Shown here piece after piece: positions 3,111 through 62,880 of a stretch of 64,000 bases of DNA. The position numbers and the translations under genes are program-made. The stretch lies in contig OX597819.1 in assembly GCA_951406725.2 (NCBI GenBank), positions 65,286,001-65,350,000 on the forward strand. Direction: 5' to 3'. This DNA is from Octopus vulgaris (lineage: Eukaryota). Each line of letters opens with the position of its first letter. Positions within the stretch are counted from its first letter, which is position 1. The notes below the pieces were generated by a model. It made no database searches. It had not been told where the DNA came from and worked only from the letters and a program-made list of their open reading frames with translations.

Positions 3111-3157
<47 letters not shown>

Positions 3158-3240
3158 GGTCCCGGGTTGATTCGGGGTTAACCACAGTAAATAAGGTACT
3201 CAATACATAGCAGAGTAAAATTAATTTATTATATAGAAGG

Positions 3241-3291
3241 AGCTTCTACAGGACTAGAACTGTTTCATTCAAGAGAAATCTTCAGGAAGCT
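3241..3291 (-). ncRNA. Type I hammerhead ribozyme motif
   Basis: Minus strand: AGCTTC-CTGAAGA-tttctcttgaat-GAAACAG-ttctagtc-CTGTA^-GAAGCT. Helix I 6 bp, helix III ACAG/CTGT, GUA triplet, weak helix II. Confidence 0.75.
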
Positions 3292-4444
3292 AGTTAACAA
3301 GAATTGTATTGGCCTTTATACATTTAGGCAGGTTTAAAGGGGTGTTGGTGGGGGACTTTTTGGGGGTAGGCATAGCGCAAAATATCATCCTTGGGGAGTG
3401 GTCAGGGAGTCAGTGTTAAATTAGATAGAAGAATAAATAAAAAAATAAAAAAAATAAAAAAATATATATAAAAAAAAATATATATATAGAAAAAATGGGG
3501 GAGTAGAGTGTTAGGTAAATAAGGAGATTCTCACTTATACCTATGCACATATGTATACATATATACACACACATACAAACATATATACATATACATACAC
3601 ACATACATACACACACATATATATACATATATATACACTTACACATACATATACATATCTACACATACACATATATGTATACATACACACACTCACATGC
3701 ATACACGTATACACACATGTATATATACACACACGACCACACATACATATACACACAGAAAAATATACATACACATACACACACATACTCACATACACGC
3801 ATACACACACATATCCACACACACACATGCACACACAGCACACTAGTCCCTATATACACATATATACACATACACACATATATACATACACACACATACA
3901 TATACATAGATATATATATATATATATATATACATATGTGTACCTATGCATACCTACACATACACACATATATATATATATATACACATACAAATACAGA
4001 CCCATTCCCTCCTCCTTAACAAAATCTCAGAACACTCCCCAAATTGTATGCATAAGAAGTATGCGAACTACAAGAACTATAGACCTACCCGGCAACCAGA
4101 TTGATGACACCCCACCCACAAAACCCCCCCAATCCCACCGTTCCCCTAGCACCCCCGATTACCTTTTCTCCTAAGACCTTTCACATATTGTATGTGCACG
4201 CTTGTATATGTGTATCGTATATATGTATAGAAATGTATGGGTATAGTAGGAATATACGCATGTATTATGTGTGTGTGTGTGTGTATGTATGTAAAAAAAA
4301 TATATATATATATATATATTTGTATGTGCGTGTGTGTATGTGTGTGTGTGTATATATGTATATATGTATGTATGTATAAATGTATATATGTGTGTATGCA
4401 TATGTATGTGTATATGTATGTGTGTATGTATGTGTATGTATGTA

Positions 4445-6111: not shown

Positions 6112-6250
6112 GAAACTTTAGCGACTGAAGAAGGGGATTTTTCGTTGTGCTTATTGTCCTGTATTTCCTTTTTTTGCTTGTCTTGTTCCTTGGTTTGTGT
6201 CTATGTTTTTCGTCTCTCTATGTGTTCGACGTCCTTTTGGTGTCCTGTAC
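6112..6250 (+). repeat. 5'-truncated copy of the repeat family at 8470-8675
   Basis: Shares ctga(a/t)gaagggga...gtgtcctgtac with the minus strand of 8470-8610. Embedded in TA/TG microsatellite. Confidence 0.6.
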
Positions 6251-6324
6251 ACATATACGCGTGTATATGTACATGTAGAGGTAGGTACGTACATATATGT
6301 TTATATATATGCATATATTTTATT

Positions 6325-6380
<56 letters not shown>

Positions 6381-7026
6381 TATGTATGTATGTATCTGGG
6401 TGTGTGTATGTGTATAAATGTATGTATGTATGGATGTATGGATGTATGTATGTATGTATACGTATGTATGTGTATGTGTGTATATGTATGTATGTGTATG
6501 TGTATATATATGTATATGTGTGTATGTGTGTATATATGTGTATATATATATATATATGTGTATATATATATGTGAATATATATGTATATATATATATATA
6601 TACATGTATGTATTTGTATGTAGGTGTATATGTATGTGTGTGTATTTATATTTATTGGTGTATATGTATAGACTAGCCTTCTAAGAGTGTAGACATGAAT
6701 CTGTAGGTACGCGTACGTATGTGTATATACGTGAATGTATGTAGATGTATGTATGTATGAATATAACGCGTGCGTGCGTGTATGTGTATGAGTGTACGAA
6801 TGAGTGAGTGTACGTGCTAAAGAGTGTGCGTGAGTGAATGAGTGCTTGTTTTCCAGTAGACAGATATATGGACTGGCTGTCATAGCCAAGATGTTTGTGA
6901 CCAAGCGGCCAAAGATAATAAAAGTAATAAACGAAGATAATAAAATGAAAATTACGGAATGGGTCTGTATTTGTATGTGTATATATATATATATATGTGT
7001 GTATGTGTAGGTATGCATAGGTACAC

Positions 7027-7066
<40 letters not shown>

Positions 7067-7680
7067 ATGTATGTGTGTGTATGTATATATGTGTGTATGT
7101 GTATATATGTGTATATAGGGACTAGTGTGCTGTGTGTGCATGTGTGTGTGTGGATATGTGTGTGTATGCGTGTATGTGAGTATGTGTGTGTATGTGTATA
7201 TATATTTTTCTGTGTGTATATGTATGTGTGGTCGTGTGTGTATATATACATGTGTGTATACGTGTATGCATGTGAGTGTGTGTATGTATACATATATGTG
7301 TATGTGTAGATATGTATATGTATGTGTAAGTGTATATATATGTATATATATGTGTGTGTATGTATGTGTGTATGTATATGTATATATGTTTGTATGTGTA
7401 TGTATATATGTATACATATGTGCATAGGTATAAGTGAGAATCTCCTTATTTACCTAACACTCTACTCCCCCATTTTTTCTATATATATATCTTTTTATAT
7501 ATATTTTTTATTTTTTTTTTTTTTTATTTTTTATTTATTCTTCTATCTAATTTAACACTGACTCCCTGACCACTCCCCCAAGTATGATATTTTGCGCTAT
7601 GCCTACCCCCAAAAAGTCCCCCACCAACACCCCTTTAAACCTGCCTAAATGTATAAATGCCAATACAATTCTTGTTAACT

Positions 7681-7731
7681 AGCTTCCTGAAGATTTCTCT
7701 TGAATGAAACAGTTCTAGTCCTGTAGAAGCT
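7681..7731 (+). ncRNA. Type I hammerhead ribozyme motif (inverted copy of 3241-3291)
   Basis: agcttc ctgaaga tttctcttgaat gaaacag ttctagtc ctgta gaagct. Confidence 0.75.
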
Positions 7732-7741
7732 CCTTCTATAT

Positions 7742-7820
<79 letters not shown>

Positions 7821-8254: not shown

Positions 8255-8258
<4 letters not shown>

Positions 8259-8437
8259 TGATCTGAGAACATAATCTTTTGTGGAGAATGACGATTTGAC
8301 GTCTATATCTAGCATGTTGACTGTCCACTTTTCGTGTTCAGTCCTTAATTGGTATATATAAATATTTTAATCTTCGGATTCTTTTTTAATATGCTAGACC
8401 ACTGGTCTTAATTGATAAATATCAATTTCTACCCTTA

Positions 8438-8445
<8 letters not shown>
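8255..8445 (+). repeat. Fragment of the family at 26048-26724 (opposite orientation)
   Basis: gacgtctatatctagcatgttgac and aatcttcggatt are reverse complements of 26480-26660. Confidence 0.85.
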
Positions 8446-8469
<24 letters not shown>

Positions 8470-8471
<2 letters not shown>

Positions 8472-8675
8472 AGTACAGGACACCACAAATAAACGTAGAA
8501 CACAACGAGAAACGAAAACATGAAAACAAACTAGGAAACGGACTTTTTTTAACAACGAAAAAACAGAGTACAAGACAAACAATACAAGGAATATTCCCCT
8601 TCATCAGCTGTCCCTGGTTCGACTCAATGCGTGTTTCGAAGGTAAGGACAGAACACGATCCGGTCGAATCACATT
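8470..8675 (-). mobile_element. Short TA-embedded repeat with hammerhead core boxes in unusual order
   Basis: Minus strand has GAAAC (8637-8633) before CTGATGA (8607-8601), with three complementary segment pairs. Homologue at 6112. Confidence 0.55.
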
Positions 8676-9815
8676 ATATATATATGTATATATATATACG
8701 TGCGTGTATGTATATATTTGTGTCTCTGTGTTTGTCCCCCCAACCTCGCTTAACAACCGATGCTGGTGTGTTTACTTTCCCGTTATTTAGCGGTCCAGCA
8801 AGACAGACCGAGAGAATAAGTACTTTGCTTACAAAGAATAAGTCCTGGGGTCGATTTGATCGACTAAAGGCAGTGCCCCAGCATGGCCACTGTCAACTGA
8901 CTGAAACAAATAAAAGAAAGAAAAGGAAAAGAATACATACATACATACGCACATACAGACAGACAGACAGACACATGTTTCTATGTATATATGTATGAAT
9001 ATATATCAGGATTAGCGAACCCATTCTACATGTATGAAGATATCATATCATACCCTATAATATCTTACCATTTCTCAAATTGCATATACGCACGATGTAA
9101 TTGTCGTAGCATGAGTAATGAATTGGTCTCTCTTCTCGCCTTCTGTGATTCTGGTTCAGTTATCTAGTTCCTCACTCTGTATTTTACAAAAGGCTTTAAT
9201 TTTAGTAGAGAGATTGTATGACTTTTCATTCTAGAACTTTACTTTGGGGCCGAGTTTCTACCATTTTTTCATCATTTCCAAACAACAAATAAATTGCTGC
9301 GCAAATATTTTAGCTATGTTATCAGAAATTGATCTTGTAGTCCTTATCGATTTCATTGTGCACAATTAAATCGTACAATTTCAGTCAACTTACTGGTATT
9401 ATCCCCATTATTTAGCATTTAGTGCTAAGCCTTGGAGGGACATATTATCCAATAGATGTTTGAAAAAACCTCTCATATATAACATATCGGAAAATCATAT
9501 AACATATAGGAAAATCTATCGTATGTATAAATGAATATATGTTTGTGTGTGTGAATACATTTTCAATTACAATGGACGTTGCGTTATACTGAAATGACTT
9601 CGAATTTCTGAAGACTGTTCTGGAGACATATGTGACATTTATTGTGCTTCAGTTCCATTATTGGATGCCATGTGTATCTTGTCACACTAAATGATCTCTA
9701 CTAAGATTACGTTTTCTAGAAATGTCATAGTGATGGCTTTCTTGACTGGTTGACATGTTGGAAGGACCTGGAGATTACACATCTCTCTATGTTGTCATAT
9801 ACATATAGAGAACTA

Positions 9816-14066: not shown

Positions 14067-15363
14067 TTAAGTAACTTCGGTAGAAAAATTAAGGTAATAT
14101 ACCCATCGAAATAGTAATGTCAGCGCTGATATATTTTCATTAACCATGAAATTGTAATCAATGAAATTTTCTGTTTTTTCATATATTAAAGAAGCTGGCG
14201 GAGAATTTGCATTTAAGTGAAAATCTTCAAGTTCCCTACCAATCCATGTAATTATTACCACCAATAATATGCAACTGTAAGGATATGGCAATAATGTAAA
14301 GCTGAACAGTTCCTGGTACCACAGACCGTCCATGATTCGTTTATAAAAACTCCTCTTTAATGGGATTTTAACTAAAACTTCTATTAAATTATCATTCAAA
14401 TTTGTATTTCGAAAGCGTAGAGCAAAGTAACAAAATCTTGAATTTTTCCCTATTTATAATGAAACGAAGACAGTGCACTATGATAGGGCTGTTGGAACAA
14501 ACTCTTTTGATTACTTAGATGTCGATCTCTCGATTTCATCAGATAATTGTTTTTGTTTCTTCTTCTTCTTCCAATCAGGACTCACGCCATTAACCACAAA
14601 GAATAATCTCTAATTCGAGCCTACTCTAAGCTACTAAGAATGCGTGTGGCAACTTGAAGATCCACCCACCACACGCGATAGCCTGGTGGTTGTACGGGCA
14701 CGAAAGCTACGTTGTTATCCTTATTCCGTAAACGGTGGCTTTTAACGGGTGGAGAGCTGAACCATCCTGGGGTACAGAGAGAATTAGCAATCTAGACTAG
14801 GGTCTGAATGTTTACCCCACCATAGTGGGTTACACCATGGTTCCTCTGCTTAGTGGAAGAAGTAAGATGAAAGAGTGAGAGAAAGTAGTGGTGAAAGGGT
14901 ACAACAGGGTTCACCACCATCCCCGCCGGAGCCTCGTGGAGCCTAGGGGTTTTTGCTCAGTAAACACACACAATGACCGGTCTGTGAATCGAAACTGCAT
15001 TCTTACGACTGCAAGTCCGCTGGCCTAGCCACTGGGCCATTGCGCCTCCACTATTGTTGTTTCTATCATTCTTACTCTTGACATAATCTTGTTTTGTAGT
15101 GCAAGGGCGTGTCACCGAGTATCTGCTTTTTTTTTTGGTCTTTTTTTATAGGGGTTTAGCTACGTTTCTTCATTTTTGCAGATAAATATCTTTAATCATC
15201 ATGACATTTCACCAGAATAACCATACCTAAAACAGCAATTTACAATTTCCCCTCCTTTTCCTTTAATTGCATAATTAATTAATTGATTTATCTACTTACT
15301 TTTGAGAGTGAAGACTCCTAGTCTGTTATCTTTAGCACGTCGACAACCTCGAAATTCATCCAT
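14067..15363 (-). CDS. Tentative two-exon ORF (15363-15300 joined to 14449-14067), ~148 aa, unknown product
   Basis: gccgATGG start. The phase-1 donor A|GTAAGT at 15300/15299 is compatible with acceptor ataaatag|GG at 14449, and the frame is open ~127 codons to TAA. No recognisable domain. Confidence 0.3.
14565..15051 (-). mobile_element. tRNA-derived SINE family C with (GAA)n tail
   Basis: Minus-strand head gtggaggcgcaatggcccagtggctagg...gtttcgattc (A/B boxes). Body shared with 32858-33000. Ends in gaagaagaag. Confidence 0.8.
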
Positions 15364-21390: not shown

Positions 21391-21583
21391 TTGTTTGTTC
21401 TCCCAACATCGCCTGACAACCGATGGTGGCGTGCGTACGCCTCCGTAACCTAGCGGTTCGGCAAAGAGACCGATAGAGTAAGTACTAGGCTTACAAAGAA
21501 TAAGTCGATTTGCTCGACTTCTGGCGGTGCCCCAGCATGGCCGCAGTCTAATGACTGAAACAAGTAAAAGAGAGTAAAAGAGA
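21195..21583 (+). mobile_element. SINE family A with internal (TA)n(TG)n
   Basis: Near-complete copy matching 62455-62880. Confidence 0.9.
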
Positions 21584-21593
21584 ATATATATAA

Positions 21594-21626
<33 letters not shown>

Positions 21627-21627
<1 letters not shown>

Positions 21628-21917
21628 TCAAAATAAGCAACAAGAATGACTCCGCTAATTTGGTACGATCGTTTCGTACTACATCATTTTATTGAATGTT
21701 GTAAGTATTACAACAGATTACAACATGATACTTACAACATTTAATAAAATTATGTAGTACGAAACGATCGTACTAAATTACCGGAATCATTCTTGCTGCT
21801 TATTTTGATTATAATCACCCCACTGATTTTTATGGATAATACCATACAAAATTCTGGTGCATCTAAATTAAGTACCATATTCGTTTGAATCTAAATTTTG
21901 CTGAACTTATATAAATA

Positions 21918-21920
<3 letters not shown>
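21627..21920. mobile_element. Foldback element (arms 21627-21710 and 21727-21808) holding the 3' half of a hammerhead
   Basis: ~83-bp inverted arms with about 7 mismatches and a 16-nt spacer. GAAACGATCGTA gives a palindromic helix III. No CTGANGA box present. Confidence 0.8.
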
Positions 21921-22002
<82 letters not shown>

Positions 22003-22019
22003 GCCTGAATGTTTCCCTT

Positions 22020-22584
22020 GTTAACAATTAACACAGAAAAAATAGATCAATAGTTACCAGGGTAGCAAAAAATCACACAAGTAAAAGGGTTGTAGCTCCT
22101 TGTTTTTACAAGGTTCACATGAAATATTTCGTATAATATATATAAATAACAGGAGTTAAACGAAGGTGTTATTCAAATTCTTTTACTTCCGACACATGTT
22201 TCGAAGTTATCACTGGTGATATTCCAAAGGAATAAAATGGTGTAAAACAATGTAATCTTCTCTTCAGGGAAATGAAGAAATGAAACTCATATACATATTG
22301 TATTTATTAGACTTCCTTTCCTTTATCCATCCTCTTTTTATAGGCTACCTCTCATGCTATATCCCATAACGCTTTTTTTAAACAATCTGAATACGTTCAG
22401 AAAATCACTATACATATCCATCATTTTTGATTAAAATGTCTTATTGACGAGTTTCGTTTCTTCACTTCCCTGAAGAGAAGACTACATTGTTTTACCTCAT
22501 TTTATTCCTTTGGAATGATACCAGTGATATCTTCGAAACATGTGTCTAAAGTAAAAGGATTTGAATAAGAGCTGCATTTAACTC

Positions 22585-22588
<4 letters not shown>
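22020..22588. mobile_element. Foldback element with hammerhead-bearing inverted arms 22151-22289 and 22449-22588
   Basis: ~140-bp reverse-complement arms with a 160-bp spacer, flanked by (GA)n/(TA)n. Confidence 0.85.
22185..22273 (-). ncRNA. Type I hammerhead ribozyme with long helix II
   Basis: ATTTCC-CTGAAGA-GAAG...CTTC-GAAACATGTGTC^-GGAAGT. The plus-strand copy at 22464-22552 has a mismatched helix I. Confidence 0.8.
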
Positions 22589-22643
<55 letters not shown>

Positions 22644-22725
22644 TCATATATGTCTCTCTTTGTATCTATGTATGTATTTATTTATCTATGTATGTATTTA
22701 TTTACCCCCGTCTCTCTCTCTCTCT

Positions 22726-22796
<71 letters not shown>

Positions 22797-23744
22797 TTAG
22801 TGCTTTTATTAGTGTACTGTTGAAGTACAAATGTAATCTAATAAATCGATTAGTTGTATTTCTTGTCAGTATGTGTAAAATACGCTACGTTAAATTTCAT
22901 TAACGCTACAGTTATATATTAGGAACTTCATTTTGTAGCTTATTGATGCAGTTTGGAATATATATGCAGCTGTTTGTGAGAATTAGGTTTGGATGATATA
23001 TACGTGTGAGAGAGTAATTTGTTGAACTTAATGCAGTTTATTATATATAATATTATTCGTTTAATATTGTGATTATGTAAAGTATAATATATTGATAAAA
23101 AATGCATTAACTAAAACAAATAATTTTAATAATAGATGAAGACGAAGACAAAATAATTCGCAATAAAAATAAATTCCGCAGAAGTAATACGGCAACGATG
23201 AGAAAAGAGAAAAATTAACAACACCAACAACACCTGGACTCGGAACAGTTCAATAAATAACTATAGAAAAGATAATTACAAAGGGAGCAAAAACGTTAAC
23301 GTATTATAAATATGTCTGTGTTCATTTTCTGTGTACAATAGAGCACAAAATATAGGCTTTGGAGTCGTAACTAAATTGCTTTTGTTATTCGCTCCGGCTC
23401 TAAATCAAGCTGATAGAAATTTCTCGAGGTATGCTGTGGAATTTCTATTTTGGATATATTTGGGGTAATTAAGTGTGCTCATGACTTAGTGTTTACTTCT
23501 TCCATGGGTACAAGTAAGTATCTCATATATTTTCTTATCGTATTTATCGCTGATGACGAGAAAATTCTAAATGAATTAACTCAGAAATTGGGACCGATCC
23601 AATAATAACGAATTTTTTTAGAAATTTCTATCGGCTTGCTTTCGAGACACGTGCTTATAGTGATAAATTATATGGTTATTCACGATTAAGTCTATTTCGG
23701 CATATTTGGTATTGAATTTTTTTCTTTTGCCCATGTTTATAAGT

Positions 23745-23805
<61 letters not shown>

Positions 23806-23806
23806 T

Positions 23807-24290
23807 TTTATATTATATTGAGGGTACTACTATTCGTAGATACCAACACGCTATGAGGGACCAATGCGGTCAAAACTACTAAAAATAAACAAAATTTTAC
23901 CGAATGCAAAAACTTCAAAACACATCATTTTAAAAAAGAATTCAGTTACATATCACATGTGATTTCGCATTTAATGCAGATTATGCATTTCATGTTCATC
24001 AGTGCAACAAACATTAAATGCGAAATTACATGTGATATGTAACTGAATTCTTTTTTAAAATGATGTGTTTTGAAGTTTTTGCATTCGGTAAAATTTTGTT
24101 TATTTTTAGTAGTTTTGACCGCATTGGTCCCTCTTAGCGTGTTGGTATCTACGAATAGTAGTACCCTCAATATAATATAAATGAATATTTTCAAAGAGGA
24201 AAAATTTACGGATTTTTTCTCTTATGAGGTTTTTCACGCTGACTACTGATAATTTCTTTTAAAGATTTTATCCTCAATTGTTAATTTATG
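23807..24290. mobile_element. Foldback element, 170-bp near-perfect arms 23807-23976 and 24012-24181
   Basis: Reverse-complement arms with a 35-nt spacer. The right arm continues ~110 bp further. The left end abuts (TA)n. Confidence 0.9.
23945..24008 (-). ncRNA. Type I hammerhead ribozyme
   Basis: GTTGCA-CTGATGA-aCAT...ATGc-GAAATCAC at GTGATA^-TGTAAC. Helix III is palindromic (ATCACATGTGAT) with an AUA triplet. Confidence 0.8.
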
Positions 24291-24296
24291 TATATA

Positions 24297-24800
24297 TCTA
24301 TATATATAAAACTCTAGTTGTGTGAGTGTCTGTCCCCTTCGATTTAGATTCCTAACTCCTCCCACATTTTGCGGTGCAGTTTAACCAAATTCGGGTATCT
24401 TATAGTCGTGATTCATATCGAGCCCGTCTGACTATTAGCGCGCGTCAACGATGAGTCTACGATTTTAAAAATAATTTAACATCATTTTTTATTCCATTTT
24501 AATGCATAAAATGCATCGTGTGTCGATGGCGGCGGAGTTGGCGTCCACGCTCACAGTTGCACCTGTTTGCTTCTCCCCCTTCCCTCCTCGTGAAGCTGTG
24601 GGGAAGGGAGTGTAAAGAAATCAACGGCGTAAAGCGTTGTGAAGGAAACCAACGTTCTTTTAGAACAACGACTTCATGGCTTGAAGACACCAAAACAAAA
24701 ATGGCTAAGAAAGCCCGAATTTATAAGGGAAGTAACTCTCTAAAAATGCTTATATAGTTATTTCCCTTACAAACCCGAGCAACGCCGGGCGATACTGCTA

Positions 24801-26047: not shown

Positions 26048-26724
26048 AAAGGACTGACCACTAAAAGTGGGCGGTCAACATGCTAGATATAGACGTCAAA
26101 TCGCTATTTTCCACAAAAAATATGTTCTCAAATAAAAAAACCAGCACGAACCAAAGTCTTAAAAATAAGCAAGACAAATGAAAATATACGAAATAAAAAT
26201 GGTTACCTATGTACTGATCAGTTTCGATTGTTATTATCCACGCATGTAAATACCCGCAATCTCTTCAGCATAGTCGTCATATAGAAATACAATTTGCTGG
26301 ACTAGATACAAAAACGTTTGACCGAAGTCTCGCATGCATAGAGTCCAACCAATTATATTTATGTGTATCTTTCAAATGCCTTCACTTTGGCGCGCTGAGA
26401 TTGGAAATCTACCCTGCAGCTAATAAGCAGGAGCAGTCAATTTACCGGTTAGAGAACATTTATTATTATTTAAAATTTAATTAGGGTAGAAATTGATATT
26501 AATCAATTAAAACAAGTGGCCTAGCATATTAAAAAAATCCGAAGATTAAAATATTTTTACATACAAAATTTAAAGGACTGACCACTAAAAGTGGACGGTC
26601 AACATGCTAGATATAGACGTCAGATCGCTATTTTCCACAAAAAATATGTTCTCAAATAAAAACCAGCACGAACCAAAGTCTTAAAAATAAGCAAGACAAA
26701 TGAAAATATACGAAATAAAAATGG
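26048..26724 (-). mobile_element. Partial-tandem (1.3-mer) hammerhead element, retrozyme/Penelope pLTR-like; 524-bp period
   Basis: Near-identical direct repeats 26048-26202 and 26572-26724 flank a unique segment containing an HHR. TA tracts lie on both sides. Confidence 0.85.
26207..26273 (-). ncRNA. Type I hammerhead ribozyme
   Basis: CTATG-CTGAAGA-GATTG...CAATC-GAAACTGATCAGTA^-CATAG. All three helices pair, helix III is palindromic (ACTGATCAGT), GUA triplet. Confidence 0.9.
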
Positions 26725-26739
26725 GTATATATATATATA

Positions 26740-26971: not shown

Positions 26972-28104
26972 CAGTAGTATATTTTTATAGCGTGCTTTCA
27001 CTTCACTACCGAGCACAGCTCTGTGTGCCCTGGGTATGTACTGTGGTTTATTGGGATGCTGTTATGGTTACTGTATCGAAAGTGTTTTGCATAGGATGTG
27101 TGCAGTGCCCAGTAGTGCAATTTTCTGTATGTTATATGTGTATGTAAGTCCTGGTGTTTTTGTTATGTATTTGTCTGAATATTTTTTTATCATACCTAAT
27201 GCGCCTACTATGATAGGAATTGTTTCTGTTTTTAGATTCCACATACGAGGTACCTCTATTTCCAGGTCTTTGTATTTTGATAGTTTCTCCATTTCTTTTA
27301 GAGCCACGTTGTCATCTGCTGCTATTGATACATCAATTAGAATGTTTTTTTTTCTTCATGATCTCTGACAACTATATCTGGCTTATTGGCCTTAATTTTT
27401 CTATGTGTGTTAATTGGCATATCCGAAAGAATGGTTGCTTTCTCGTTTTCCTTTACCTTTTCTGGCGTGTGCCAATACCATCTTTTTTCTGTTGTTATTC
27501 CATAGTGTTGGCATAGCTTCCACTGTATGAAGGTTTCAACTCTGTCGTGTCTGTGAGTGTATTCCTTCTTAGCCAGGACTGGAGAGCCAGAGATAAATGA
27601 TTTATTGTTTCTTGTCCATCTCCACATATTCTGCAGTTACTTCTTATGTTTCTTTTCATTACATGTTTTTGGTAATTTCTGGTGGGGAGGCTTTGGTTTT
27701 GTGCTTCATTTAAAAAAACCCTCTGTCTCTGTTTTGAGTCCTACGCTTCTCAACCATTGCTGGGATTTTTCTTTGTCTATTTTTTTTGCATTTAGTTTTG
27801 TCCAGTATTTGCTATGAAGGGGCTTTCTTGCCATCGTTTTATCATGGTCCCTTGCTGTTCTAGTTTTAGTTTGGATTTCATTTGTTTTATACCTTTTGCT
27901 GTTTCTTCTTCTTCTTCTTCTTCTTCTTCTTCTTCTTCTTCTTCTTCTTCTTCTTCTTCTTCTTCTTCTTCTTCTTCTTCTTCTTCTTCTTCATATTTGT
28001 TAGGTTGTATGATTTCTTGTTTGTATTTGTCAACTTCCTTAAATACTGAGAACATTCTTTTTATGTGGCTCGTGCTTTGCGGCTATTTGTATAAGTTTTC
28101 CTTG
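26972..28104 (-). mobile_element. 5'-truncated, frameshifted R4/Dong-type non-LTR retrotransposon (RLE endonuclease region plus 3'UTR)
   Basis: Translations ISGSPVLAKKEYTHRHDRV, KANKPDIVVRD, EKLSKYKDLEIE..RMW, IPIIVGALG and IQKIALLGTAHIL: the RHD and PD..D motifs of RLE LINEs. Confidence 0.9.
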
Positions 28105-29959: not shown

Positions 29960-31753
29960 CAATAATAACAAAGGATAAAATTAATTAATTAACTAGTAAT
30001 CAATAATTTCACCAAGTAGAATTCGGTATGAAAAAGGACAATTTCTCGGTAAACTTAAGTAATATTTTATAATTAGGGTTCAGCAAATATCTGCTTTACC
30101 ACACACCGAAGTTTAGAAATAGCAGCCAAAGAACCTTAGCTATTTCCTCTACTTTAAAAAGAGCCTCCCGGACAAAAACAAAGTACTGGAAAACAATCCA
30201 CGCAGGCAGAGAGGTAAAATAACGAAAATCAATCGATATCTGATTACCCATGACCAAATACACCACTTGTTTCTTGGCTGCATCAATTTGCCAAATGTTT
30301 GAGTCATTTTGGATAGATTCTGTTGTTAACGTCCAGAACGATGTTGGTAATTTTTTCTGTCCCATGAAGTACTGATTTAACTCTAAACGTTAAACCATTT
30401 GATAAATATGCTACCTCATGATCGAACTTATTCGCAAATATAATCTATAAATGAATGTCCAATTGTATTTTCAGTGTCATTGTTTTCTTAAAGGATAATT
30501 GTCGCATTTATATAAATATTTCTAATACATGTTTTGATGGAAGAACGATATTAATGATAATATTATTTGACGGGCATTTATTCTACTCAGTGTGAAAATA
30601 TTAAAAAGCAACGCCGATCTCGACCTGCTGAAATTCAGAAATTTGAGTAACTACTACATACCTCAAGCAATCTTCACCGACGCTCTAGCGATTCTGAGGA
30701 AGCGTTACACTTAAAACTTTGCAAATGTCTTCTTGAAAAATGATCTCGTAAATGTTATGCCTTTGAGTAATTTAAAACAAAAAATCTGATTCCACTTCCA
30801 TACGCTTGGAAACTTTATAAGTAAATTTGTTTCAGCTGCTAAAGAAAACCTTGCGGAAAATTGTGAAATACACAGCTTACAGCGAAGTAACTGATTCGAA
30901 TATGTAGTGAGTGTGTTCTACTTTAGAAATTATTTGGCTTAGTTCGTATGATTGTTTTAGTTCGTCTGACAGTACATCTGAACTTTTGACATTGTTTCAA
31001 GTCATAATTCAGTTTCGTGATATATATATATATATATATATATTCAGTTTCGTGATATACATTTATATATATACATATATATAATTCATAACGAAGAAGA
31101 GAATGGAGATTTATAGACATGGAAAACTTTTATATTAAAATGTTTTCTACTGCATATATAACACTGACCTTCATGTGTTTCGACCGCTACAATTAATTGA
31201 AATCCGAATATATATTTTAAAAGTACACTTCAAGTGCAATGCCAGTAGAGGTGATTATAAATCCAGAATTCTATTGGACTTAAGAAGTAACGCTATCACT
31301 ACGCAGGACATTTGTTTAAATGAGTTCACTTTGAAAACGTCATGAGTTATGGAGCATTGAAGGAACTGCAGCGACCAGGATGCATGATTGCATACAGTGC
31401 AATGTGCAGTTGCTGGATTCGGAACATGTAGGTCAGTGTTATGTATGTTGTGGAGAACATTTAGTTAAAATACTTCGTTATTAATTATATAGTCTACGAA
31501 TGATATGCAGTTCTGAATAGGATCATGGAACTATCCAACGAGTGAAGCTTAACAGTACCACATTTTGAGTTCTATGTAACTGCACCGTTGTCAACAGCCG
31601 GCATCTACACTAATATGTAAGATAATAGTGTCCGCCGAGATAATGTATCACTTTAATTTTCTCTCTCTCCCTCTCTCTTTCTTTTTCCCTCTCTTACCTC
31701 TGTCTATCAATCCTTCTCACTTTCTCTCTCTACATATGTATATTTATGTGTGT

Positions 31754-32781: not shown

Positions 32782-32788
<7 letters not shown>

Positions 32789-33070
32789 ATCACGTGACCG
32801 ACCAGACCATCAGATGTTGTTACATATCGCTGGTCACAATGCGTTCGCATTGTTTTTCGATTCCCAGACCGGGCGTTGTGAGTGTTTATTGAACGAAAAC
32901 ACCAAAAAGCTCCACGAGGCTCCGGCAGGGGGTGATGATCCCTGCTGTACTCTCTCACCACTCTTTCTCCCACTCTTTCTTCCGTTGGCCTGCTCGAAGG
33001 CAAAAACAATGCGAACGCATTGTGACCAGCGATGTGTAACAACATCTGATGGTCTGGTCGGTCACGTGAT

Positions 33071-33077
<7 letters not shown>
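32782..33077. mobile_element. 296-bp element with 76-bp inverted termini enclosing SINE C body, in (TA)n
   Basis: Arms 32782-32857 and 33002-33077 differ at one position. The interior matches the reverse complement of 14870-14993. Confidence 0.9.
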
Positions 33078-38430: not shown

Positions 38431-38543
38431 AGCAATAATACATCTCTGAGAGAGGTATAAAGAGATCAATGACTTTTCATCACTGGAAATAGGATATATA
38501 TATTTGCATTCGGAATCACTTCACGTCGACAGCCGGTGATTGT

Positions 38544-43504: not shown

Positions 43505-43719
43505 TTCTTTTCTTTTATATGATTTAGTCATTTGACGGCAGCCGCGTTGAAGCACCGCCTTTAGTGAAGCTAATAGACCCCAGGATTTATTCTTTGTAAG
43601 CCTAGAACTTATTCTATCAGTCTCTTTTACGGAACCACTTGGTTACGGGGATATAAACACACCAGCATCGATTGTTAAGCGACGGTTGGGTGACAAACAC
43701 AGACACAGAAACATATACT

Positions 43720-49167: not shown

Positions 49168-49355
49168 GGTTTTTTCCTCCGACATCGCTTGACAATCGAT
49201 GCTAGTGTGTTTACGTTCCTGTAAATTAGCAGTTCCGCAAAAGTGACCGATAGAATAAATAGTAGGCTTGCAAGGAATAAATCCAGGAGTCGATTTGCTC
49301 GACTAAATGCTGTGCTCCAGCATGGCCGCAGTAAAATGACTGAACCAAAAAAGAG
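48901..49355 (+). mobile_element. SINE family A with internal (TG)n
   Basis: Head-to-tail match to other copies. Confidence 0.9.
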
Positions 49356-49356
49356 A

Positions 49357-49579: not shown

Positions 49580-49937
49580 TATTCTCTTTTATTCTTGTAT
49601 TGGTTTCAGTCATTTGACTGCGACTATGGTGGAGCACTCAAACAAATCGACCCCCAGAACTCATTGTTTGTAAGCATAGTAGTTACTCTATCTGTTTCTT
49701 TTGCACAACTGCTAAGTTACGGGGACTTAAACACAACAGCATCGGTTGTCAAGCGATGGTGGGGGGACAAACACACACAAACACACACAGACACATACAC
49801 ACACACACGAAAAAATATATACACCACGGGCTTCTTTCATTTTTCTTCTAATGCATCCACTCACAAGGCTTTAGTCGGCTCGAAGCTTTACTAGAGAGCA
49901 CTTGCCCAATTTGCCACACAGTGGGACTGAACCCGGA
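49580..49937 (-). mobile_element. SINE family A
   Basis: gtttcagtcatttgactgcg...cagtgggactgaacccggaa. Confidence 0.88.
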
Positions 49938-58553: not shown

Positions 58554-59618
58554 ACGCACTCACTCAAACAGACACACAGACACACACACTCACTCAAACA
58601 CACACACAAACAAATATACAAAGACACAGACATGCATTTATATATGCACGCAAACAGTACAATATATTTAATACAACCGAAAAAGAGACAACCGTGGTAT
58701 TCAAAAGAGTTAGGAGGCAGATATTACAGTCACACAGAGGAATTACATGCGAACGAATGGAGATGAAAAGAAGCGATAGAAATAACGAAGGAAAGAAAAC
58801 AGAAATAAAAAACAGAACGAAGCAAAAGAAGAAAATTGAAGGGTAGCGTGATTTGATAAGTCGTAAGAAATAGATAGCAGATAGTTTAAATGAAACAGGC
58901 GAGAGAAGTGTCATGAAATGGTAGAGAACGCCAAAAAAAATATATATATACAATAATAAAACGAAATCAAGAAGAAATGGTAAGGGATCCTTGAAATCTA
59001 TGGCGCTATTGTTTCGTAAACAATCATGAATTTAAGAAAATGGAGTTATGAAACATTGTATTCCAGTATTTTTTGATAGTGTTCTAGACTCGCTGCTATT
59101 ATTTCTAATAATTCTGTTGATTTTCTGTAATATTTTATGAAACATCATTGTTTTTTTGTTTTACAAGCGTTTTACTTTTTTAATACTAAAAAAATAAACT
59201 GACGTCTAAACTTGATGGTAACTACCTGCATGGTTTAGAGTTTGTGTTGAAAATCATACAAGGATAACGGTAGGAACAGCATACATAGACTAAAAGAAAA
59301 TTTTGAACAATTCTGAAGATTGTGTAAGGTTATCTATGCCAGTAACAATATCTGTGAATATCAACATTAACTTTATGTCTCTCTACATATGTGTGTGTGT
59401 GTGTGTACACATAATAGCGGGGTTTAGTTCACGTATAATCTAAGTGATTAGGTATTCCAGCTAAGTGCTGTTACGGATTACTCGGGTTCCAAGGTTACAG
59501 CCGAGACGGTAGTTATGGAGCCATTGCAGGTTTCCGAGATAGCGGTTATATCATTGTTGAAGAAGACAACAAACGTTTAGGCAAAGCAAACATCTCAAGT
59601 TATATACATTATTATTAT

Positions 59619-60058
59619 TGGAAAAAATTCAAAGTCTTACAGCTGTTTCTAGGATATGCTAGAGTATGGGATATTCTATCATCAGAGACAAATATGGAAA
59701 ATGCGATTAATGAAATGACGAAATAGAGATGAGGAGCAAAGGAATAAGGAGACGAAAACAGAGAAGAAAAAAGAGCATAAATATTCAGTTAAACTTTCCG
59801 ATCTTGTAGAAATAACTCGGATTACGCCGGGTTGAGGCTAAGGACTTATGAGCTTATTTCTACAAGAAAGCTGAACCCTGAACTTCTATGCTATCTTTTC
59901 TTCTCTTTCTTCATCTCCTTATTCCATTACACCTGTACTTTATGTCGTCACTTCATTAATCTATACCCTCCTCATTTTCCCTCTTTGAGTCCGATGTCGG
60001 AATATCCCATACTCTCGGATATCCCAGAAACAGGTGTGAGACTCTGAATATTTTTCCA
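59619..60058. mobile_element. Older foldback element (arms ~59619-59729 and ~59939-60058)
   Basis: agagtatgggatattc / gaatatcccatactct and attaatgaaatgacga / tcgtcacttcattaat. Confidence 0.8.
59634..59689 (-). ncRNA. Type I hammerhead ribozyme
   Basis: GTCT-CTGATGA-TAGaATAT...ATATcCTA-GAAACAGCTGTA^-AGAC with palindromic helix III ACAGCTGT. The plus-arm copy is degenerate (ccgatgt). Confidence 0.8.
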
Positions 60059-60420
60059 GTAATAAAAATGCAAATATTTTGAGATGTTTCCCTTGCCTTA
60101 ATATTTGTTGTCCTCTTTAACAAATATACATACATACATATATACATACATATATACATACATATACATATATACATATACACATGCACACACGCATTCA
60201 TACAAACGCACATATATATGGGAGACATTAAATGTGTAAGTCTCTAAGTGCATCCAGGAGTTATGACCTGCAAGCAACGCAGCGCCCTTAAAACGAAAAA
60301 ATGTAAGGAGTTAACGGCCGACATCTGATGTGTAGCTCTCTTGAAAGTTTCTTGCCGCAACACTACTGTATATATGGTAGAGAGAAAGAAGCACGCACAT
60401 GCAAATACAGATTTACACCA

Positions 60421-62678: not shown

Positions 62679-62880
62679 GTGGGGTTGTCCCCACAACATC
62701 GCTTGACAACCAATGCTCCAGTGTTTACGTACCCGTAACTTAGCGGTTGGGCAAAGAAACCGATAGAATAAAAACTAAGGTAAGAAAGAATAAGTCCTGT
62801 GGTCGATTTGCTCGACTAAAGGCGGGGCTCAAGTATGGCCGCAGTCAAATGACTGAAACAAGTAAAAGAATAAAAGAACA
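62455..62880 (+). mobile_element. Full-length SINE family A, followed by a diverged SINE B (62900-63110)
   Basis: ggcgcagaagcggttgtgtggtaag...ggttccgggttcagtccc (A/B boxes), internal (TA)n, tail gactgaaacaagtaaaag. Confidence 0.9.

What the first reader, a model, noticed from the sequence alone, without database searches (positions are those of the whole stretch)
21627..24290. Three unrelated foldbacks in 2.7 kb, all tail-out with unequal arms
Seen: at 21627, 22020 and 23807 (also 3157, 31138 and 59619) the left arm reads as the ribozyme strand on minus and the right arm on plus. Both 3' tails therefore face outward, ending at different points in TA tracts. Inversion junctions fall within or just 5' of the HHR; at 23807 the CTGATGA box lies in the 35-nt spacer. 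Known: Penelope insertions often have an inverted pLTR. Inference: both ends of a break in (TA)n prime reverse transcription at different internal points of the RNA, and the two cDNAs join near the ribozyme.
Basis: partly seen in the sequence, partly recalled or inferred. Interest (0 to 1): 0.7.

Follow-up and report, generated by a model that had tools for sequence, protein, structure and literature searches.

The report
Back-to-back Penelope retroelement stumps
These hairpins are pairs of shortened, back-to-back copies of unrelated repeats that carry hammerhead-ribozyme motifs; they are likely ordinary Penelope-type jumping-gene insertions, likely made when both ends of a DNA break start copying the element's RNA, and their joints do not sit at the predicted ribozyme cut site.

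Summary
The three foldbacks are real, belong to unrelated multi-copy families and face tail-out. A missed fourth (23398-23747) lies among them. All 7 foldbacks that could be oriented are tail-out (p = 0.008). This layout is in print for Penelope-like elements: an inverted 5'-truncated copy, a one-sided tail, head-to-head most frequent, (TA)n targets.

Arms are unequal in 5 of 7. Only 9 of 14 ends abut TA tracts. The link between junctions and the ribozyme is not established: 0 of 12 arm ends lie at the predicted cut, 11 of 12 run through it, and 3 of 6 junctions lie in the ribozyme zone against about 2 expected (P = 0.30). The arm-level test is borderline (P = 0.03-0.19).

The useful detail is staggering: at 22020 and 23807 each arm holds sequence the other lacks. 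That favours two priming events over a simple snap-back. Tails are 72-138 nt, against 30-40 in print. No Penelope ORF was found in the window, and no genome or empty site was available. The scan has reported this layout and mechanism many times on other DNA of this genome. Interest 0.25.

The parts
21610..21627 (.). (TA)n tract at the left end of foldback 21627
21628..21708 (-). Foldback 21627, left arm: stem II hairpin, GAAA, palindromic stem III, predicted cut after 21664; short 3' end (+36); no CTGANGA box
21709..21725 (.). Foldback 21627 spacer; the 7-mer TACAACA of the arm start recurs at 21709, 21719 and 21733 (likely templated filler)
   Evidence: origin inferred
21726..21910 (+). Foldback 21627, right arm: predicted cut after 21772; long 3' end (about +138, end uncertain 21903-21927); tail about 102 nt
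21928..22000 (.). (TA)n then (GA)n tract between foldbacks 21627 and 22020
22013..22288 (-). Foldback 22020, left arm: complete type I hammerhead motif (box at 22267, cut after 22191); 5' end at -98; long tail to 22013 or a little further (+178)
22289..22586 (+). Foldback 22020, right arm including the 'spacer', which is the family's own upstream sequence; box at 22470, cut after 22546, two stem I mismatches; 5' end near -249 (lies in 22289-22324); short 3' end (+40) then (TA)n
   Evidence: (loose ends, joints)
23398..23424 (-). Foldback 23398 (added here), left arm of 27 nt, covering +21 to +47: wholly 3' of the predicted cut
23423..23747 (+). Foldback 23398, right arm: hammerhead motif (box at 23550, cut after 23599); 5' end about -177; long end +148; tail 101 nt
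23748..23803 (.). (TA)n tract shared by foldbacks 23398 and 23807
23807..24011 (-). Foldback 23807, left arm: whole hammerhead motif (box at 24002 in the 35-nt spacer, cut after 23951, A-C mismatch at the base of stem II); 5' end about -61; short 3' end (+144)
24012..24288 (+). Foldback 23807, right arm: starts inside stem II (-26); long 3' end (+251); tail 107 nt, then a short TA tract
   Evidence: (record 16)
3157..4008 (-). Foldback 3157, left arm (may run on to about 4190): hammerhead motif at 3285, long end +90
6957..7743 (+). Foldback 3157, right arm: hammerhead motif at 7687, short end +18, 5' end -769
31085..31176 (-). Foldback 31138, left arm (old; half motif)
31424..31491 (+). Foldback 31138, right arm (same 3' end, internal gap)
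59554..59815 (-). Foldback 59619, left arm: hammerhead motif at 59685, cut after 59638; 5' end -178
59854..60123 (+). Foldback 59619, right arm: decayed motif; ends in (ATAC)n

Best explanation
Each hairpin is two 5'-shortened, head-to-head copies of the 3' end of a hammerhead-motif repeat, likely a single Penelope-type insertion in which both DNA ends at an AT-rich break likely primed reverse transcription at two start sites about 70-140 nt apart. Steps: (1) Shown: unrelated multi-copy families, hammerhead motifs, tail-out arms, one-sided tails, mostly TA flanks. (2) From a paper on another Penelope element: the protein cuts and extends both strands of AT-rich DNA, starts at two internal RNA sites that bound the tail, and does not need ribozyme cleavage. 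(3) Inferred: each 3'-OH primes a cDNA pointing into the gap, which forces tail-out geometry; use of the near site on one side and the far site on the other gives the unequal ends. (4) Inferred: synthesis stops early (26-325 nt in 10 of 12 arms), and the two cDNA ends are joined by end-joining, sometimes with filler. (5) Shown: 11 of 12 arms run through the predicted cut, so uncut RNA was likely the template. The junctions lie near the ribozyme mainly because it sits 18-251 nt from the start sites. (6) Inferred: TA tracts left by one insertion attract the next, which gives the cluster. The RNA may be the end of a full element or a non-coding derivative; this was not resolved.
For: Tail-out in 7 of 7. 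Staggered arms at 22020: the left arm has the 138-nt tail but stops at -98, and the right arm lacks the tail but reaches about -249. Loose ends behind 22288 and 22290 (20 and 11 contigs) match the reverse complement of the spacer end, 6 opposite-strand joints link 22262-22288 to 22448-22460, and 78 contigs cover 22150-22151. Staggered arms at 23807: the left arm holds the box and the 5' strand of stem I, and the right holds the tail; one contig spans 24065-24218. One joint in another copy of the 22020 family has a readable tail-out orientation and 5 shared letters (22038 to 22433; one contig, 24-nt short side). A sixth family shows two 3' ends 102 nt apart without being a foldback (26048; 26470 and 8447). 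Summed contig depth on the 21627 right arm rises toward its 3' end from 63k to 262k (a poor measure by the tool's own note). Papers: PMC11167929; PMC8557442; twin priming in L1, PMC2912911.
Against: No RT or GIY-YIG ORF was linked: 0 Penelope-type hits among 90 frames. No empty site, target duplication or whole genome was available. Staggering is clear in only 2 of 6 elements. 23398 is nested (the long-tail arm is also longer at 5'), 21627 is tied, and 3157 and 59619 are unresolved. Two of 7 have about equal 3' ends, and 5 of 14 ends lack a TA tract within 20 nt. Four other inversion joints show 0 shared letters and their orientation is not given. PMC11167929 saw no difference in start site between strands, so near/far pairing is not shown in vitro. 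Its tail is 30-40 nt, not 72-138. Arms 8-18% apart could have come from different source copies. The arm-level test for junctions in the ribozyme zone reached P = 0.03 at one zone width (P = 0.011 before conditioning on detectability).
Confidence: 0.62

Rival explanations
1. Snap-back (self-priming) makes one hairpin copy, which the endonuclease later opens or trims unevenly, leaving a tail on either arm.
For: PMC3846280 proposes self-priming on an antisense template from palindromes at inverted junctions. PMC8557442 ascribes the tail to endonuclease resolution of the intermediate. 23398 is nested and 21627 is tied at 5'. Arms are nearly identical at 23807 and 3157.
Against: A plain snap-back copy must be nested in its template arm, but at 22020 and 23807 the arm longer at 5' is shorter at 3', so an extra trimming step is needed. 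In vitro the tail ends equal the RT start sites (PMC11167929).
Confidence: 0.17
2. The hammerhead fold, not its cleavage, stalls reverse transcriptase or offers the pairing for the join, so junctions really are enriched in the ribozyme.
For: 5 of 12 arm ends lie in the zone against 2.6 expected (P = 0.03 at 25-nt padding). In five read-derived joints of the 22020 family, 5 of 10 ends lie at -14 to -81 and one at -114.
Against: Element-level 3 of 6 against 2.0 (P = 0.30); arm-level P = 0.07-0.19 at the other paddings; exponential nulls expect 2.0-2.9 of 6. Arms of one element are not independent, and the zone was drawn after seeing the data. 3157, 59619 and 23398 fall outside it. The laid stretch could only show joints between about -270 and +180.
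Confidence: 0.25
3. Two separate insertions of the same family at one spot, the second landing in the first.
For: Arms differ by 8-18% in five elements. The Anolis protein cuts its own ORF-pLTR junction in vitro.
Against: 169 of 170 identity at 23807 and 7 mismatches in about 780 nt at 3157. No TA tract lies between the arms of the 2.7-kb cluster. Orientation is always tail-out. Each foldback family occurs once in the window. At 21627 and 22020 the arms share 0 and at most 1 listed difference from the family majority, which fits drift after one event but does not prove it.
Confidence: 0.08
4. Ribozyme self-cleavage sets the RNA 5' end and so the junction.
For: Intact cores in several arms. One copy of the 26-kb family begins about 10 nt 3' of its predicted cut.
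Against: 0 of 12 arm ends at the cut and 11 of 12 extend 5' of it; 0 of 10 read-derived joint ends at the cut. Ribozyme mutants do not alter insertion in vitro.
Confidence: 0.04
5. Miniature inverted-repeat DNA transposons (MITEs) with TA target sites.
For: Short, non-coding, inverted arms next to TA.
Against: Ends are unequal, arms carry hammerhead cores, the family runs colinearly through the 'spacer', and junctions differ among copies.
Confidence: 0.03

Closest known systems
Insertion units of endonuclease-positive Penelope-like elements (PMC8557442 Fig. 2 legend; PMC3846280)
   Same: Inverted 5'-truncated copy adjacent at the 5' end; head-to-head the most frequent form; optional tail at one end; hammerhead near the 3' end.
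   Different: Both copies are cut down to a few hundred bases with no ORF. Tails are 72-138 nt against 30-40. No target duplication could be read.
Hydra clade of Penelope-like elements (PMC8557442 section 11, Files S1 and S2)
   Same: (TA)n preference. Canonical hammerhead about 90-270 nt from the consensus end in most listed families (for example 2403 of 2507 in Hydra-1_Obim). An unpaired base pair at the base of stem II, as at 3285.
   Different: No RT or EN here to place the clade. The listed Hydra-1_Obim ribozyme differs, by eye, from every motif in this window. Six window motifs gave no Hydra hit in the supplement text (one 10-mer hit in an unrelated Naiad; wrapped lines and cut cells can hide matches).
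Opposite-strand pairs of minimal hammerheads in Schistosoma (PMC4209133)
   Same: Dual motifs 100-700 bp apart on opposite strands, ascribed to truncated Penelope-like elements.
   Different: Orientation, tails and junctions were not tallied in the part read.
L1 twin priming (PMC2912911; PMC11702581)
   Same: Both DNA ends prime, giving an inverted 5' part with both RNA 3' ends outward.
   Different: In L1 the second primer anneals by microhomology next to the end of the first cDNA, so arms overlap by 10 bp or less (10 of 32 duplications, 22 of 32 deletions). Here arms overlap by 27-790 nt and start sites look fixed per family.
Animal non-LTR retrozymes (PMC7229834; bioRxiv 10.64898/2026.07.22.740005)
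   Same: Non-coding, type I hammerhead, proposed Penelope derivatives.
   Different: Defined by tandem units. The foldbacks here show no tandem unit; only the 26-kb family (524-nt spacing) approaches one.

Membership tests
Endonuclease-positive Penelope-like element | ORF with Penelope RT and GIY-YIG endonuclease linked to the repeat | tested here: inconclusive
   No such domain in 90 frames of the window. The stumps are too short to include one, and no genome was held to walk upstream.
Endonuclease-positive Penelope-like element | Type I hammerhead motif near the 3' end | tested here: met
   Full cores at 22267, 23550, 24002, 3285 and 7687 and 59685; only the 3' half at 21627 and 31138.
Endonuclease-positive Penelope-like element | Inverted 5'-truncated copy, head-to-head | tested here: met
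   7 of 7.
Endonuclease-positive Penelope-like element | Optional tail at one end only | tested here: met
   5 of 7 have one, 72-138 nt long; the length differs from the 30-40 nt in print.
Endonuclease-positive Penelope-like element | AT-rich or (TA)n target | tested here: met
   9 of 14 ends within 20 nt of a TA tract; no null computed.
Endonuclease-positive Penelope-like element | Dispersed multi-copy family with variable 5' truncation | tested here: met
   Many diverged contigs on all four cluster elements; 5 different inversion joints in the 22020 family.
Endonuclease-positive Penelope-like element | Target-site duplication or empty allele | tested here: inconclusive
   Flanks are microsatellites. 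The joint table was swamped by flanking repeats (15 of 379 rows shown).
Hydra clade | RT phylogeny; EN lacking CCHH; CxCX5C linker | not testable with these tools
   No coding sequence is linked to these families.
Hammerhead ribozyme (active) | Self-cleavage | not testable with these tools
   Motifs only. In the folds of eight isolated motifs none showed all three helices correctly formed (read by eye), and whole elements fold as long hairpins (-53 to -302 kcal/mol).
Non-LTR retrozyme | Two or more tandem units with hammerheads | tested here: not met
   No direct repeat within the four cluster elements. The source family may still be one.
MITE | Fixed, symmetric terminal inverted repeats | tested here: not met
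   Unequal ends in all four cluster elements; variable junctions in the 22020 family.

The most novel reading that the evidence does not exclude
A Penelope protein dimer loads both cut DNA ends onto one uncut RNA at two fixed sites about 100 nt apart. The far-site enzyme trails the near-site enzyme, so the long-tail arm is usually the one shorter at its 5' end, and the hammerhead hairpin acts as a roadblock rather than a knife. The recurring 101-107 nt tail in four unrelated families would be the spacing of the two active sites on folded RNA. Head-to-head Penelope insertions would then be the routine product of a two-ended priming cycle, readable from genome sequence alone.
Probability: 0.2. 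Interest if true: 0.6.

Novelty: new member of a known kind. Interest (0 to 1): 0.25.

Why it matters
The layout itself is ordinary for Penelope-like elements and needs no new system. What is still open in print is how the head-to-head copy arises: one paper proposes antisense self-priming, and the in vitro paper shows two-strand priming but its main text does not discuss inverted copies. Staggered arms are a simple sequence test between the two models, and this genome has many short examples. Six elements in one window cannot settle it, and the scan already holds genome-wide versions of the same argument.

Tried and rejected
Whole genome: none held, so no genome-wide tally or empty-site comparison. 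Rfam: 0 at gathering score; the 150 of 309 E-value rows shown were below-threshold matches, nearly all microRNA models on microsatellites or hairpins. Sequencing runs: no RNA holder listed, which says nothing on expression. First read-laying was swamped by high-copy flanking repeats. A locus-like contig crosses the 23398 junction with only 27 nt on one side, below the tool's 31-nt rule, so it is not counted as bridging. No cover at 21700-21725 is not taken as evidence. The family sequence 5' of 21726 was not among the 6 of 247 loose ends shown, so the box of that family is unverified. Two metagenome scans gave 0. One prokaryote-genome hit, L001, is a bare 19-mer chance match. Look-ups by sequence in earlier findings gave nothing relevant, nor by nearby place. 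Idea that the tail pairs with the strand after the cut to silence the ribozyme: 1 of 6 families at 10 of 1000 shuffles, the others at 129-743 of 1000; rejected as a rule. Candidate foldback at 38530: 33 of 1000 shuffles reach it; dropped. Rows left out of counts: 31138 from the junction test (cut and 5' ends not placeable); 32785 and 24720 from the orientation count (no hammerhead motif). The first masked screen missed 31138. Assembly artefact rejected: arms differ by 0.6-18% and have unequal ends. Paper searches for twin priming applied to Penelope inversions listed no paper that makes the claim; the library lacks most subscription papers, and the supplements of PMC11167929 and of the bioRxiv preprint were not seen.
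Full report
Setting. The window is AT-rich and microsatellite-rich (GC 0.27-0.39; 13,959 of 64,000 bases masked as simple repeat). A Pfam scan of 90 reading frames gave one notable hit, a LINE-type zf-RVT fragment at 27498-27740, below its curated cut-off. No genome is held. Earlier scan notes call the genome octopus; I did not test that, and run labels were coded.

The observation. The three headline foldbacks exist, at 79 of 86, 141 of 155 and 173 of 177 identity. So do 3157 (770 identities, 7 mismatches), 59619 (215 of 262) and, weakly, 31138 (39 of 46; 0 of 1000 shuffles). The families are unrelated (28 of 28 pairs within shuffle range). A screen of 25 candidate sites found a fourth foldback in the same 2.7 kb, 23398-23424 against 23620-23646. 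My hammerhead descriptor gave 8 hits scoring 11 or more, against 0.1 per shuffle; a first scan added 59685. Of 8 insertions with a full core, 5 are foldbacks and 3 are not (26268, 38550, 63752). Orientation is tail-out in 7 of 7 (p = 0.008), or 5 of 5 using full cores only (p = 0.03). The cluster is two pairs that share a microsatellite tract: 21627 with 22020, and 23398 with 23807. Four of 7 within 2180 nt has P = 0.005-0.014, post hoc.

Anatomy relative to the predicted cut, as 5' end / 3' end. 21627: left -45/+36, right -47/+138. 22020: left -98/+178, right about -249/+40. 23398: left +21/+47, right -177/+148. 23807: left -61/+144, right -26/+251. 59619: -178/+84 and -185/+85. 3157: -762/+90 and -769/+18. 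For 21627, 59619 and 3157 the two 5' values are set by where the alignment stops, because the spacer's owner is unknown, so they are not independent. Tails are 102, 138, 101, 107 and 72 nt, with a few bases of uncertainty in AT-rich ends. A sixth family that is not a foldback has two ends 102 nt apart.

Family data from public contigs. All four cluster elements are covered by many diverged contigs in 4 of 4 runs. A single-arm stretch laid with one run shows that the 160-nt 'spacer' of 22020 is the family's upstream sequence on plus: loose ends behind 22288 and 22290 match the reverse complement of its end, and 6 of 11 joints connect it to the left arm. So the right arm is the long one at 5' and the left arm is the inverted truncated copy. 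The other 5 joints are inversion junctions of other copies. One (22038 to 22433) is readably tail-out with 5 shared letters, but has a 24-nt short side in one contig. Four (22086/22222, 22094/22204, 22098/22215, 22206/22271) have no shared letters and the table does not give their orientation. If they are head-to-head, three pair an arm that stops inside the tail with an arm that starts in stem II. The window copy matches the family poorly at 22090-22141, which could shift those ends.

Is the junction tied to the ribozyme? Not to cleavage: 0 of 12 arm ends and 0 of 10 joint ends lie at the cut, and 11 of 12 arms run through it. This agrees with PMC11167929, where ribozyme mutants did not change insertion. 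Enrichment near the fold is unresolved. Permuting arm lengths gave 5 of 12 in the zone against 1.9 (P = 0.011). Conditioning on detectability gave P = 0.19, 0.09, 0.03 and 0.07 at four zone widths. At element level it was 2-3 of 6 against 1.3-2.2 (P = 0.30-0.50), and exponential-length nulls expected 2.0-2.9 of 6. In Hydra-clade consensus sequences the ribozyme mostly lies about 90-270 nt from the end, so short copies end near it by default.

Mechanism. Geometry (inference): a 3'-OH on each side of a break primes a cDNA pointing into the gap, which puts the RNA's 3' end outward on both sides. PMC11167929 shows that a Penelope protein cuts and extends both strands, prefers AT-rich DNA, starts at two internal sites that bound the tail, and is predicted to be a dimer. 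It found no strand difference in start site, and its one use of 'inverted' concerns a blocking nucleotide. PMC3846280 instead reads head-to-head copies as antisense self-priming. A snap-back copy must be nested in its template, but 22020 and 23807 are staggered, each arm holding what the other lacks. That favours two priming events, though uneven trimming of a hairpin by the endonuclease (the tail explanation in PMC8557442) could mimic it. 23398 is nested, and three elements are uninformative. The 21627 spacer repeats a 7-mer of the arm start, which looks like templated filler from end-joining (inference from general knowledge of end-joining, recalled). I put the Penelope-type identity near 0.9 and the full two-ended model near 0.6.

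Comparison with what is known. The inverted 5'-truncated copy, the one-sided tail and the TA preference are described in PMC8557442 and PMC8969392. Head-to-head is 'most frequently observed' in PMC3846280, and opposite-strand hammerhead pairs 100-700 bp apart are noted in PMC4209133. The elements work like Penelope-type insertions; strict membership and clade are untested because no ORF is linked. Differences from print are the longer tails and the near-total truncation of both copies. L1 twin priming gives the same orientation but almost no arm overlap.

What I saw of each paper. PMC8557442: passages, section 11, supplement searches and part 2 of 59 (cells over 400 characters are cut). PMC11167929: parts 1-2 of 4 (all of the main text and the start of methods), no supplements. 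bioRxiv 10.64898/2026.07.22.740005: part 1 of 5, supplements closed. PMC4209133: part 1 of 4. PMC3846280, PMC8969392, PMC2912911, PMC11702581 and PMC7229834: passages. Unseen supplements could hold tail lengths or a model for inverted copies.

Earlier scan notes. The same layout and the same two-ended reading were reported many times on other pieces of this genome, including the argument that a single fold-back cannot build all cases. These notes are leads, not independent support. My search words already named staggered arms.

Verdict. Real, mostly ordinary: new members of a known kind. Interest 0.25. The boldest reading left open (one RNA, two enzymes, fixed spacing of about 100 nt, hairpin roadblock) has probability about 0.2.

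Noticed in passing
window 3229-4008 and 6957-7743: The arms of foldback 3157 share about 450 nt of degenerate TG/TA microsatellite almost letter for letter (770 identities and 7 mismatches over the whole arm). The element likely carried this microsatellite as cargo, a possible route for spreading complex microsatellites. The origin of the 2.9-kb interior is unresolved.
   Followed up: partly
window 26048-26725 (minus) and 8258-8447 (plus): A further hammerhead family in direct partial tandem with 524-nt spacing (retrozyme-like or pLTR pair). It has two 3' ends about 102 nt apart, and the upstream copy begins about 10 nt 3' of the predicted cut.
   Followed up: partly
window 32785-33074: Foldback with 73-nt arms (98.6%), equal ends in TA tracts on both sides and no hammerhead hit. 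Its interior matches a repeat at 14866-14994 that has a B-box-like motif (label recalled), so it may be a SINE-like family inserted with the same geometry, or a MITE.
   Followed up: partly
window 6125-6267 (plus) and 8460-8607 (minus): Two decayed copies of another family starting at a CTGANGA box (104 of 154 aligned columns). The one at 8460-8607 meets the 8258-8447 copy tail to tail across one TA tract.
   Followed up: partly
window 38550 (plus) and 63752 (plus): Hammerhead motifs with no significant inverted partner nearby.
   Followed up: partly
window 24720-24773: Small hairpin, 20 of 24, 0 of 1000 shuffles, inside a high-copy repeat; no ribozyme motif.
   Followed up: no
window 27498-27740 (minus): LINE-type zf-RVT fragment (E = 5e-05, below the curated cut-off).
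   Followed up: no
window 21392-21586, 8729-8930, 43511-43699, 49169-49356, 49580-49773, 62685-62877: Abundant SINE-like family, about 72-80% identical between copies, in both orientations; it swamped the first read-laying.
   Followed up: no
window 21773-21790 with 21809-21910: In the 21627 family the strand after the predicted cut can pair with the tail (10 of 1000 shuffles); not seen in five other families.
   Followed up: yes
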